A DNA stretch of 64,000 bases from an uncultured Methanosarcinales archaeon (lineage in GTDB: Archaea > Nanobdellota > Nanobdellia > Woesearchaeales > GW2011-AR9). Shown one piece after another: positions 57,001 through 60,000 of the stretch. The DNA lies in NCBI GenBank assembly GCA_964343575.1, contig CAYFJV010000001.1, positions 472,705 through 536,704 of the forward strand, written 5' to 3'. Made by a program: the position numbers. The stretch's first letter is position 1. Each line of letters starts with the position of its first letter.

Positions 57001-60000
57001 TCCTTTGCTTCTACTGCAGTATTTGAAGGACTTGGCGCGCAAGGAACAAACATTATTCTGAAAAGTGGGGTTGCTGATGATAACCCAACTGGTCGCTTAG
57101 CTATGCATGTGATTCCTCGTTGGCAAAATGATGGGATTGATCTGCTTTGGCAGCCTTCACAGCCAAGTTATGATTTGGATTCGCTTGCTTCTAAAATAAA
57201 GGATGCAAGCTGGAAGGTGAAGTATGGCGGTACTTCTAAAGCTGAAGAAAAGAAAAAAGTAATCCCTGCCTTAGAGAAGAAAGTAGAGCGCATTGGCGGA
57301 GGTGTTGATGTAGGGAGTTCTAAGGGTAAGCATCGTGAAGAAATTTTGGCTGCGATGAAAAAGATTCGTGGTGCTTGAGTATTTTCTTTTGCTCGTTTTT
57401 GGTGATTTGAGAAACGATAAGGTTTTATAGGCTGGTTTCTTTCTTTGAGCTAAGTTTTATTTTATGTAGGTTTATTGTTAAAGAGGTGAATGATTAATGG
57501 CAAGAATTTCTGTTAGAAAGTTAATGAGAAATGATGACCCTTCTGGGTTTACAAGAGTCAAAGTTGAAAGCGGAGAAGAATACACTGAAGAGGAAAAGCG
57601 TGAATCTTGGTGGAGAAGAATTATTCCAATTAGGCCTGGTTCTCTTGGACCAACTAGAGCAAGGATGAAACTTTATATGGGAGACCGGGTTCTTGAGGAT
57701 GAAGCAATCACCCTTCCAAGAAGTGAGGAACAAATCACTTTTGGAAGGAGTACCAAAGCTATGATTGCTGCTCCTTCTGCAGCCCAGGTAGTCTCCACTA
57801 ATCAAGGCGTTTTTGTTAGAAAAGATGGAGGAAAACTTTTCTACAAAGAAAATCCAAGAGTCAAATTTGGGTCAAAGATAAAAAGAAAGGGCAGTTTAAC
57901 GCCTTTGGTTCCAAATGTTGAACACCGTATCTTTCATAAAGACGTTCTTGTAATTGAAAGTGGTACTAAAGGCGCAGGCAAACTTGCTCGCTTTGAAATC
58001 GAGTTTAGATGATTATTGTTTTTTATCCTTTTTCTTACTTCTTTTATTCTCCTTCAAACTCAACTAAGGAGAACACATTGTGCCCTGCTGCTCTTAACTT
58101 CTCTGCACCTTTAAGATCAGGCAAGTCAATGACAAAGGCAAGGCTTTCTATTCTTGCTCCAAGCTGTTCAATAAGTTTTGCTGCTGCAAGTGCGGTTCCT
58201 CCCGTTGCTAAAAGATCATCAAGAATAAGTACCTTGTCTCCTGCCTGGATTGAGCTTTTATGCAGCTCGAGGGCAGCGCTTCCGTATTCTAAATTGTAAG
58301 ATTCTGAGATTGTTTGATGTGGAAGTTTTCCTTTCTTTCTTAGAAGAACTAGGGGGAGTTTTAATTCTTGAGCAAGAAGGGCTGCAAAAATAAACCCTCG
58401 CGCGTCAATGCCAGCCACCTTTGTGATACCTTTGTTTTGGTAACGTTCTTTGAACTTTTTTACAGTGTAGGCGAGGGCTTGTGGGTTTTCTAAAAGTGTA
58501 GTGATGTCACGAAACATAATGCCGGGCTTTGGCCAGTTTGGAACGGTTCGAATCCTTGTTTTGAGATCAAATGTTTCTGTTGTTTCTGAAGCCCAGTGAT
58601 TGGGTTGAGCTAAGAATTCTTCTCTTGGTTTTCCATTCACCACTGCGGTTTTGAAATCTTCTTGACAAGAACACTGCCAAGCTGCGATTCTAGGAATGGT
58701 ATTGATAAAAAGTTCGATCACATTTTGTGCATTTTGTTTGAAGACCTTGAGTACTTCCTCCCAACTTACTTTTTCCTCACTAGATCTCCAAGAATCATAA
58801 TCTGTTGACATAGCAACTGCAGCATAACAAAGCCCTGCTTCCCTAGCAAGAACTGCTTCTGGAACTGTGGACATGTTGATTACATCTGCTCCCCAAGATC
58901 TGAATAAGTGAGATTCTGCTCGGCTTGAAAAGCGAGGACCCTCAATGGTAATAACTGTTCCTTGTTCATGATATCGGAGTTGTAGTTCCTTTGCAACTTG
59001 AGCATAAGTGTTGCGAATCTTTTGGCAAAAAGGATCTGCCATTGGAATATGACTTACTTTTCCTTGCTCATAGAAAGTTTGTTTTCGTTTTGTCGTGCGA
59101 TCAATAAACTGGTCAATAAAAACAAGATCTCCTGGTTTTATCTCTTCTCTTAAGGAGCCCACCGCAGTGGATGCAAGAATGTGTGTACAGCCCTCCTGTT
59201 TGAGCGCAAAGATATTCGCTTGATTATTTACCAGAGTTGGCATGATGCTATGATCTCTTCCGTGTCTTGCCAGAAGAACTACTTGAACACCAGCAATGCT
59301 GCCAATCTTAAGTGCAGAAGAAGGTGTACCAAAAGGTGTTTCAACATTTTTGTCATAGGCGTCCTTGAGAATGTTAGGGTTGTCTAATCCAGAGCCACCG
59401 ATAATGCCTATTTTTACCATGCTACTAAGAGTAATTTCAAATCAGAAGATATATAAATATTTAGAGCTTAAAGTGGAGTATGGTAAAAGGTGTGGCTGCA
59501 AAGCCAGGAGATCAGGTGCAAATTACTTCTGAAGGGCACAAAGAAGAAGGAATCTTAATGCCGAGCTTTGATGACTCTGTTATTCTTATTAAGCTAGATA
59601 CTGGTTATAATATTGGTTTTGAAAAGAAAAAGGCTAAAGTGAAAGTGCTTGAAAAAGCAAAAGAAAAGAAAGCTAAAAAGAGTAAAGTTGCTAAAAGGAA
59701 GGATCTTCCTACAATCGCTGTTTTGCATACTGGGGGAACCATTGCTTCTAAGGTCGATTACCGAACAGGGGGGGTTTCTACCTTGTTTTCTCCGGAAGAA
59801 CTGTTGAATTTATTTCCTGAGTTGAAAGATATTGCTAACGTTGAATCAGAATTAATTGCCCAAATGTGGAGTGATGATCTACGATTTAAGCACTTTGCAG
59901 TTGTTGCCAAAAAGATTGAAGAGTATGTGAAGAAAGGAGTTTCTGGGATCATTATCGGCTCAGGGACTGATAACCTTGCAGTCTTTAGTGCAGCACTTTC

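What a model noticed while it worked through the whole genome (the two positions that open the first line are those of the whole stretch)
58044..59420. Natural fusion of MTA phosphorylase and adenine phosphoribosyltransferase
g00570 (458 aa) joins a methylthioadenosine phosphorylase that is 62% identical to human MTAP to a complete adenine phosphoribosyltransferase. I read it as a bifunctional enzyme that turns MTA (plus phosphate and PRPP) into AMP and methylthioribose-1-phosphate without releasing adenine, fitting a purine-auxotrophic symbiont. New would be a one-chain MTAP-APRT, useful as a compact biocatalyst or coupling enzyme for SAM-dependent reactions and as a test of adenine channelling.
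Evidence so far: Pfam: PNP_UDP_1 residues 3-238 (1.9e-47), Pribosyltran 307-430 (3.2e-18); NCBIfam names the N-part S-methyl-5'-thioadenosine phosphorylase (tables, call 83). Swiss-Prot: residues 2-251 = human MTAP 10-264, 61.6% identity, 1.5e-107. Residues 263-458 vs PDB by phmmer: 20 adenine phosphoribosyltransferases from E 1.7e-55 (4mb6_A, query 17-195 = chain 7-186), next class xanthine PRT only 3.5e-10. One uninterrupted ORF. Six-frame search with the APRT part in 40 other Nanobdellota genomes: 8 match; 1 (G043, same family) lies in a 451 aa frame, i.e. fused as here, 7 are stand-alone frames of 176-190 aa. Paper search for MTAP + APRT + fusion/bifunctional gave nothing relevant (25 papers with 3 of 4 [...]
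(Added by a program. Inside this text positions count along the whole contig: contig position 472,705 is position 1 of the stretch shown here. "Call 12" and the like, gene names such as g00115 and contig names such as C1 are that model's own, and its searches are not shown. The text may have been shortened before it was handed on; [...] marks where a part breaks off. The agent that wrote the report below was given it as the finding of a first reader that could run no searches.)

Follow-up and report, generated by a model that had tools for sequence, protein, structure and literature searches.

The report
Fused adenine-recycling enzyme in DPANN archaea
This small-genome archaeon really does join two consecutive adenine-recycling enzymes into one protein, but the join is common among its relatives, has formed or broken many times in a tight gene cluster that recycles waste from the cofactor SAM, and probably acts as a loose tether rather than a sealed channel.

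Summary
Confirmed: window 58044-59420(-) is one 458-aa ORF, an MTA phosphorylase (MTAP) joined to an adenine phosphoribosyltransferase (APRT). Both halves pass curated cut-offs and keep their catalytic residues.

It is not rare. 31 of 133 APRT-bearing genomes of the phylum sample are fused (16 of 22 in this family), and 54 more carry the genes side by side. A single origin is rejected (AU p 5e-45). The linker is unconserved (2-51 residues).

The pair is half of a cassette, ahcY - adenosine-kinase-like - mtaP - apt, between gatD and HIT/TFIIB. This genome lacks the first half. Relatives make kinase-MTAP-APRT triple fusions (16 clusters) and kinase-AhcY fusions.

Best reading: it recovers adenine from SAM by-products (5'-deoxyadenosine as likely as MTA) into AMP by tethered, freely diffusing catalysis. 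It is not methionine salvage, since no isomerase or aldolase was found. Sealed channelling is unsupported.

I found no paper on the fusion, and neither activity is tested. Verdict: new variant of a known kind, interest 0.35.

The parts
58044..59420 (-). Whole fused gene mtaP-apt, 458 aa plus stop
58635..59420 (-). MTAP domain, residues 1-262, including a C-terminal Cys-x-Cys tail that most family members lack. Active-site residues S10, R52, H53, A86, H124, F164, M183, T206, D207 and D209 are invariant in 98 of 98 aligned fusions
   Evidence: (PRK08564 match 2-261)
58569..58634 (-). Linker, residues 263-284; unconserved, pLDDT under 50 at 268-281, no methionine codon; occupies the place of the stop codon and spacer of the split relative G398
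58047..58568 (-). APRT domain, residues 285-458; R341, G342, R361, K365, E378, Y379, D401, D402, L403, A405 and G408 are invariant in 98 of 98
59480..60802 (+). gatD, divergent flanking gene; conserved border of the cassette. In relatives ahcY and the adenosine-kinase-like gene lie between gatD and mtaP
56308..57378 (+). Double-HIT protein, conserved other border of the cassette (not shown to belong functionally)
55321..56253 (+). TFIIB, conserved synteny marker

Best explanation
A tethered bifunctional adenine-recovery enzyme. The MTAP half phosphorolyses the 5'-deoxy nucleosides left by SAM-using enzymes (5'-deoxyadenosine from radical-SAM enzymes, MTA), and perhaps also adenosine, to adenine plus a sugar-1-phosphate. 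The APRT half condenses that adenine, and free adenine from elsewhere in the cell, with PRPP to give AMP. The sugar phosphate is not returned to methionine in this family and is probably dephosphorylated and excreted. The fusion arises repeatedly by loss of the stop codon between two tightly spaced genes of the cassette ahcY - adenosine kinase - mtaP - apt, and fixes co-expression and proximity; adenine diffuses between the sites. Shown here: domains, residues, distribution, cassette, repeated origin, missing downstream genes. Inferred: both activities, substrate ranking, sugar fate, absence of a tunnel.
For: Curated family cut-offs are passed and catalytic residues are invariant. MTAP and APRT co-occur in 127 genomes (of 151 with MTAP and 133 with APRT, 401 searched): 31 fused, 54 adjacent, 13 within 3 kb. 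42 of 55 measured split pairs are at most 20 nt apart. G398 has stop + 17 nt + ATG where same-genus G196 reads through. One origin is rejected (dlnL 454, p-AU 5e-45, 50 rows). Cassette order ahcY-kinase-mtaP-apt between gatD and HIT/TFIIB. All 24 of 24 kinase-positive genomes have AhcY (57 searched); there are 11 kinase-AhcY and 16 kinase-MTAP-APRT clusters; the kinase's best PDB match is adenosine kinase 3ubo, E 7e-54. The window's genome has PRPP synthase, 10 radical-SAM matches and no PurC. No IF-2B-family isomerase in 0 of 16 and no class II aldolase in 0 of 16 fused family genomes. MtnP cleaves both MTA and 5dAdo, and the sugar is dephosphorylated and excreted, in Synechococcus (PMC8102628, passages).
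Against: No activity has been measured. SAM synthetase was not found in this genome with either family, although all 21 relatives with MTAP+APRT have it; its SAM source is open (gap in a 95% complete genome, or import). Only the C-terminal part of Dph2 was found. Outside this family, 10 of 15 fused genomes do have an IF-2B-family gene (not sorted into MtnA or R15P isomerase), so the dead-end-sugar step does not hold for all. The genome lacks the kinase, so the division-of-labour argument is borrowed from relatives. Fused genomes less often have a PurC-like match (4 of 31 against 14 of 29 unfused; kin are not independent), which may mean the join is selected for more than convenience. The concatenated tree assumes the two genes share one history.
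Confidence: 0.72

Rival explanations
1. The phosphorylase half is mainly an adenosine or 2'-deoxyadenosine phosphorylase that salvages nucleosides taken from the host or from nucleic-acid breakdown, as in Schistosoma MTAP.
For: The genome has no adenosine-kinase-like gene and no AhcY, no spermidine synthase over cut-off and no SAM synthetase found. It has Ser10 like SmMTAP Ser12 and no equivalent of human Leu279 was aligned. G304 has ahcY directly before the fusion with no kinase found, where adenosine would need this route.
Against: 14 of 22 family genomes with MTAP+APRT also keep the kinase, some in the same chain, which makes an adenosine role redundant. PGM/PMM to recycle ribose-1-phosphate is in only 4 of 16 fused family genomes and not in this one. 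Ser at position 10 is also in 48 of 48 distant MTAPs, and the S12T mutation did not remove adenosine activity (PMC5147791 passages), so it is not diagnostic.
Confidence: 0.15
2. One reading: the join exists to pass adenine directly from one site to the other, through a defined interface or a closed oligomer built from the MTAP trimer and the APRT dimer.
For: The join recurs in at least 10 families; many members have linkers of only 2-8 residues; a reverse-order fusion and fusions with other phosphorylase or PRTase types also exist. The trimer and dimer states are recalled, not tested.
Against: Linker length is 2-51 with mean conservation 0.14 against 0.75 in the cores. Monomer models give pTM 0.60 and 0.66 despite pLDDT near 89, and even the short-linker member has a loop between the domains. 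This is the only APRT found in the genome, which also has an AMP-phosphorylase-like source of free adenine. Splits next to fusions suggest easy reversal.
Confidence: 0.08
3. The fusion is a neutral read-through with no functional consequence, or one half is dead.
For: Stop loss needs only a point change or small indel in pairs 20 nt or less apart; the state flips often.
Against: Both halves are equally conserved (0.75 each) with invariant catalytic residues, so neither is decaying. A 99-supported clade holds 13 fused of 15 rows across many genera, so the join can persist. Neutrality of the join itself is not excluded and overlaps with the best explanation.
Confidence: 0.04
4. In genomes without AhcY the phosphorylase half also cleaves S-adenosylhomocysteine, replacing SAH hydrolase.
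For: 7 of 22 family genomes with MTAP+APRT, this one included, lack AhcY; many members lack the C-terminal tail that closes the 5' pocket in longer MTAPs (role of the tail from PMC5147791 passages).
Against: No anticorrelation of AhcY with MTAP+APRT (15/7/11/9, Fisher p 0.53); 9 of 42 genomes have neither; 74 of 98 fusions put a bulky Trp at the position of human Val233.
Confidence: 0.03

Closest known systems
Human-type S-methyl-5'-thioadenosine phosphorylase (MTAP/MtnP, EC 2.4.2.28; PDB 1CB0, 1SD2; Sulfolobus MTAPII 2A8Y; Schistosoma 4L5A)
   Same: Fold (rmsd 1.8), 58% structural-alignment identity, the two adenine-reading Asp residues and the phosphate and ribose site residues
   Different: Carries a C-terminal APRT; Ser for human Thr18 and Thr197, Trp for Val233; no downstream isomerase or aldolase found in this family
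Short-type adenine phosphoribosyltransferase (Apt, TIGR01090; PDB 4MB6, 2DY0, 1ORE)
   Same: Full-length match above the curated cut-off, with PRPP-binding and catalytic-loop residues invariant
   Different: Tethered to a phosphorylase; no methionine codon near its start
Adjacent mtnP-apt gene pairs of Woesearchaeales/Pacearchaeales, Nitrospirae, Desulfobacterales, Marinimicrobia and some Alphaproteobacteria
   Same: Same two genes in the same order, from the same MTAP clade except for the alphaproteobacterial pairs
   Different: Separate chains, mostly 20 nt or less apart
Natural bifunctional nucleotide enzymes: HGPRT/adenylate kinase of Zobellia (PMC7326950, abstract seen), UMP synthase OPRT-OMPDC (PMC3868941, listing only), Tetrahymena MtnBD (PMC2759508, PMC3698126, listings only)
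   Same: A PRTase or methionine-salvage enzyme fused to a pathway neighbour
   Different: Different partner enzymes; none of them joins a nucleoside phosphorylase to APRT
Adenosine kinase of the PfkB family (PDB 3UBO, 4E3A) coupled to SAH hydrolase AhcY
   Same: The third domain of the triple fusions matches 3UBO at E 7e-54 to 9e-51 and always co-occurred with AhcY
   Different: Here fused to MTAP-APRT or to AhcY; absent from the window's genome; the kinase label comes from PDB titles and context, not from an assay

Membership tests
MTAP/MtnP (TIGR01694) | Score above the curated equivalog cut-off | tested here: met
   306.6 against 274.85; the narrower PRK models are not reached (for example PRK08564 309.2 against 382)
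MTAP/MtnP (TIGR01694) | 6-aminopurine-reading Asp pair and phosphate/ribose site residues | tested here: met
   D207, D209, R52, H53, A86, H124 and M183 in 98 of 98, N182 in 95 of 98; mapping via and PMC5147791 passages
MTAP/MtnP (TIGR01694) | Preference for MTA over adenosine and 5'-deoxyadenosine | not testable with these tools
   Needs kinetics; the residue differences are not diagnostic
MTAP/MtnP (TIGR01694) | Trimeric assembly | not tested
   Oligomer state recalled from known MTAPs; no homo-oligomer was folded
APRT (TIGR01090 apt) | Score above the curated cut-off and clear margin over xanthine and hypoxanthine PRTs | tested here: met
   213.8 against 185.85; XPRTase 58.2, HPT_Archaea 56.4
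APRT (TIGR01090 apt) | PRPP-binding DD-L-A-T-G-G-T loop and catalytic-loop Glu-Tyr | tested here: met
   D401, D402, L403, A405, G408, E378 and Y379 invariant in 98 of 98; motif roles recalled
Methionine salvage pathway or DHAP shunt (MtnP-MtnA-...) | MTR-1-P isomerase and downstream dehydratase or aldolase in the genome | tested here: not met
   PF01008 not found in G000 nor in 15 other fused family genomes; PF00596 in 0 of 16; genomes are 92-100% complete
Channelling bifunctional enzymes | Conserved linker or fixed interdomain geometry | tested here: not met
   Linker 2-51 aa, conservation 0.14; low-confidence linker, pTM 0.60 and 0.66
Channelling bifunctional enzymes | Intermediate protected from bulk solvent | not testable with these tools
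   Needs scavenger or isotope-dilution kinetics

The most novel reading that the evidence does not exclude
The cassette ahcY - adenosine kinase - mtaP - apt is a complete 'SAM waste to AMP' machine that these archaea are repeatedly welding into single chains (MTAP-APRT, kinase-MTAP-APRT, kinase-AhcY). Because MTAP is a trimer and APRT a dimer, the fusions self-assemble into a defined three-fold by two-fold particle (hexamer or 12-mer cage) that measurably hands adenine from site to site: a natural version of the symmetry-fusion cages made by protein designers.
Probability: 0.1. Interest if true: 0.72.

Novelty: new variant of a known kind. Interest (0 to 1): 0.35.

Why it matters
It corrects the annotation of a sizeable family that databases name as MTAP alone. 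It ties a PfkB kinase of these archaea to SAH hydrolase and outlines how purine-poor DPANN cells recover the adenine spent in SAM. Natural series of split, double and triple forms with linkers of 2-51 residues give a ready test set for whether fusing consecutive enzymes speeds flux. The triple fusion would be a one-gene system to turn adenosine, MTA and 5'-deoxyadenosine into AMP, useful for relieving product inhibition in SAM-dependent biocatalysis. The chemistry itself is textbook.

Tried and rejected
Complex prediction of the MTAP domain (1-262) with the APRT domain (283-458): verdict 'no answer', score 0.00 twice, controls not folded; not used for or against binding.

Sequencing runs for window 57400-59700: none was listed, so the junction and expression could not be checked against reads.

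The promoter and terminator scan gave counts at chance level (4 against 3.6, 1 against 2.3) and uses a bacterial promoter model. GC content of the gene (0.41-0.42) does not stand out from its flanks (0.34-0.46), so there is no sign of recent insertion.

Idea that the PfkB partner is a ribose-1-phosphate kinase feeding the pentose-bisphosphate route: rejected; those models score about 93-108 bits against cut-offs of 330-500, and the gene tracks AhcY.

Idea of a continuous helix joining the domains in short-linker members: not seen.

Idea that the fusion replaces AhcY: no anticorrelation.

Idea that human-likeness is special to this gene: bacterial copies are 54-63% identical to it and fall in the same clade. 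A careful tree for the animal placement did not finish; the quick tree was used.

Apparent bacterial fusions in the genome scan were adjacent separate ORFs on inspection.

Three non-fused rows are APRT-only proteins with internal duplications.

Full report
OBSERVATION. The ORF 58044..59420 (-) translates to 458 residues without a stop. Pfam finds PNP_UDP_1 at 3-238 and Pribosyltran at 307-430. NCBIfam puts both halves above their curated cut-offs: MTAP TIGR01694 306.6 against 274.85 and apt TIGR01090 213.8 against 185.85; xanthine and hypoxanthine PRT models score under 75 bits. The best solved relatives are human MTAP (E 2.2e-101) and bacterial APRT 4mb6 (E 1.5e-54). An AlphaFold model has mean pLDDT 88.8, pTM 0.60 and one stretch under 50, residues 268-281; it overlays human MTAP at rmsd 1.8. 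In 98 aligned fusions the adenine-reading Asp207 and Asp209, the phosphate and ribose residues Arg52, His53, Ala86, His124 and Met183, and the APRT residues Arg341, Glu378, Tyr379, Asp401 and Asp402 never vary. Roles of the MTAP residues are taken from passages of PMC5147791; roles of the APRT residues are recalled.

HOW COMMON. A search with the APRT part among proteins of 251-802 residues gave 1194 hits among 8000 candidates scored. Of the 120 listed, 117 (query included, a few partial) have MTAP followed by APRT, 13 of them with an N-terminal extension, and 3 are APRT-only. The six rows with an organism name are Woesearchaeota, Pacearchaeota or Nanoarchaeota. In 401 genomes of the phylum, 133 match APRT and 151 match MTAP; 127 have both and 244 neither. 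Of the 127, 31 are fused (all 31 checked at ORF level), 54 are adjacent in the same order, 13 lie within 3 kb and 29 are otherwise placed, 22 of these on different contigs. The fusion occurs in 10 families, and in 16 of the 22 positive genomes of the window's own family. A capped scan of named genomes (80 loci kept of 596) gave two more fused Woesearchaeota, adjacent unfused pairs in Nitrospirae, Desulfobacterales and relatives, Marinimicrobia and two Alphaproteobacteria, and one APRT-NUDIX-MTAP chain in a Falkowbacteria genome.

HOW IT AROSE. On a tree of 93 concatenated pairs (33 fused, 60 adjacent; G244 and the reverse fusion left out) the label needs 13 changes, 7 of them forced by well-supported branches, against 27.1 for shuffled labels. 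On a 50-row subset chosen after that tree it needs 12, and holding the 24 fused rows together costs 454 log-likelihood units, p-AU 5e-45. Counts cannot tell gains from losses, and concatenation assumes a shared history. The window's nearest rows are two fused genomes and one split genome. The split G398 has a stop, 17 nt and a start codon where its same-genus relative G196 reads through. Of 60 split pairs 55 could be measured, and 42 of these are at most 20 nt apart. The stretch between the cores is 2-51 residues (median 18, 39 here), with mean top-residue frequency 0.14 against 0.75 in both cores. A short-linker member still models with a loop between the domains and pTM 0.66. This is the pattern of easy stop-codon loss in a tight operon, not of a conserved interface.

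THE CASSETTE. Twelve of the 13 extensions are PfkB domains. Their best solved relative is titled adenosine kinase (3ubo), and ribose-1-phosphate kinase models stay far below cut-off. A search with this domain among 418-1332-residue proteins returned 39 rows: 16 kinase-MTAP-APRT, 6 kinase-MTAP (some may be partial), 11 kinase-AhcY and 6 others. Triple fusions were seen in genomes G236, G228 and G133. Among 57 genomes (the 42 of the family and 15 other fused ones), 24 have the kinase and 31 have SAH hydrolase, and all 24 kinase genomes have AhcY. Neighbourhoods of 26 loci show the order ahcY, kinase, mtaP, apt between gatD and the HIT/TFIIB genes in several genomes, with either half missing in others. 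In the family, 14 genomes have both halves, 7 only mtaP-apt (this one among them), 7 only ahcY-kinase, 4 ahcY alone, 1 ahcY plus mtaP-apt, and 9 none; some absences may be assembly gaps. In the window the fused gene starts 59 nt from gatD, so ahcY and the kinase are missing from their usual place, and they were not found elsewhere in the genome. The cassette reads as recovery of adenine from all three SAM by-products: SAH by AhcY and the kinase, MTA and 5'-deoxyadenosine by MTAP and APRT (inference).

METABOLIC SETTING OF THIS GENOME (95% complete, 6 contigs). Found: PRPP synthase, 10 radical-SAM matches, a 503-aa protein with the three pyrimidine/AMP phosphorylase domains (the name AMP phosphorylase is my inference), and the C-terminal part of Dph2. 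Not found with these queries: PurC, spermidine synthase over cut-off, IF-2B-family isomerase, Rubisco, class II aldolase, PGM/PMM and SAM synthetase of either type. Only two PRT-fold proteins were found. The isomerase is in 1 of 41 family relatives and 0 of 16 fused family genomes, but in 10 of 15 fused genomes of other families, where I did not sort MtnA from R15P isomerase. So in this family the enzyme serves adenine recovery and removal of inhibitors, not methionine salvage. Synechococcus MtnP cleaves both MTA and 5'-deoxyadenosine and the sugar is dephosphorylated and excreted (PMC8102628, passages), and a review expects the same enzymes to handle both substrates (PMC6302742, passages). 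Against my reading: the missing SAM synthetase, which all 21 relatives with the pair have, leaves the SAM supply open.

HUMAN LIKENESS. Unfused copies in the phylum are mostly 48-73% identical to the window's MTAP, and the close bacterial copies 54-63%. In two quick trees the animal sequences lie inside a branch supported at 97 that holds most Nanobdellota copies and those bacteria. Sampling is strongly tilted to Nanobdellota and eukaryotes are few, so no donor can be named.

LITERATURE. Nine searches listed 11 of 12, 25 of 53, 20 of 78, 20 of 33, 4 of 4, 2 of 3, 15 of 137, 20 of 150 and 10 of 12 papers; no listed title or abstract start describes an MTAP-APRT fusion. Term searches in two DPANN genomics papers found no 'methylthio' or 'adenine' in the main text (PMC8421398; PMC8204110); their supplements were not searched. 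A survey of archaeal fusions does not mention it in its main text (PMC11237513), and its fusion table has three rows of the phosphorylase clan, none with a PRTase; that file was cut when stored, so a row could be hidden. Subscription papers are not in the library. The closest characterised analogue seen is HGPRT/adenylate kinase (PMC7326950, abstract). This scan's own notes hold four earlier reports of the same two-domain fusion in other genomes and one on the gene pair; two word searches for the kinase-containing form gave none.

VERDICT. A real, conserved, recurrent fusion of two textbook enzymes, most likely a tethered adenine-recovery enzyme for 5'-deoxyadenosine and MTA (0.72). It is undescribed as far as searched and easy to test, but ordinary in chemistry and origin. 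The more interesting objects are the four-gene cassette and its triple fusion, which lie in relatives rather than in this window. New variant of a known kind; interest 0.35.

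Noticed in passing
L045:2003-4528, L046:2353-4692, L047:1546-3882; P0009 and 15 other clusters: Triple fusion adenosine-kinase-like + MTAP + APRT (about 700-840 aa) in three family genomes and 16 protein clusters.
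   Followed up: yes
L229:2496-4925 (G271); P0289-P0300: Adenosine-kinase-like domain fused to SAH hydrolase (810 aa), close upstream of an MTAP-APRT fusion; 11 such clusters.
   Followed up: partly
L209:2242-3693 (G355), L210:2116-3561 (G319): MTAP fused to a different phosphoribosyltransferase that does not match this APRT by BLAST; substrate unknown.
   Followed up: no
P0236, P0243; P0123, P0124; L096:3-1853: Convergent architectures: another PNP_UDP_1 type fused to APRT, reverse-order APRT-MTAP, and APRT-NUDIX-MTAP in a Falkowbacteria genome.
   Followed up: no
L048:2392-4725 (G252), P0075: MTAP-APRT with a 340-aa N-terminal extension that has no Pfam hit; by recall it resembles aminoglycoside-phosphotransferase-like proteins, not tested.
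   Followed up: no
G000 whole genome: No SAM synthetase found by PF02773 or PF01941 although 36 of 41 family relatives have the bacterial type; assembly gap or SAM import.
   Followed up: partly
L246:1922-2647 (G000:C1 about 371.4-372.1 kb): Dph2 appears split in this family into an N-terminal piece of about 90-120 aa and a C-terminal piece; only the latter was found in G000.
   Followed up: partly
L214:1082-2593 (G000:C1 about 559.6-561.1 kb): AMP-phosphorylase-like gene without R15P isomerase or Rubisco in G000, G121 and G228; the fate of its sugar product is open.
   Followed up: no
trees: Animal MTAPs nest inside a 97-supported branch dominated by Nanobdellota copies; a Promethearchaeota copy groups with Woesearchaeales ones instead. 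Sampling is biased, so no donor is claimed.
   Followed up: partly
window 57497-58012 (+): 171-aa ORF converging on the fused gene, with no Pfam or NCBIfam hit; looks FHA-like by recall only.
   Followed up: no
L252:1984-2844 (G000:C1 about 291.5-292.3 kb): A second, divergent PNP_UDP_1 protein (21% identical over 163 aligned residues) near a radical-SAM gene.
   Followed up: partly
L003:2017-3475 (G398), L244:1492-2980 (G171): Two-gene unit converging on apt that by recall resembles an AbiEi/AbiEii-type pair; not scanned.
   Followed up: no
L228:2511-4115 (G161): Cyclase domain fused to the adenosine-kinase-like gene in a genome where MTAP and APRT were not found.
   Followed up: no
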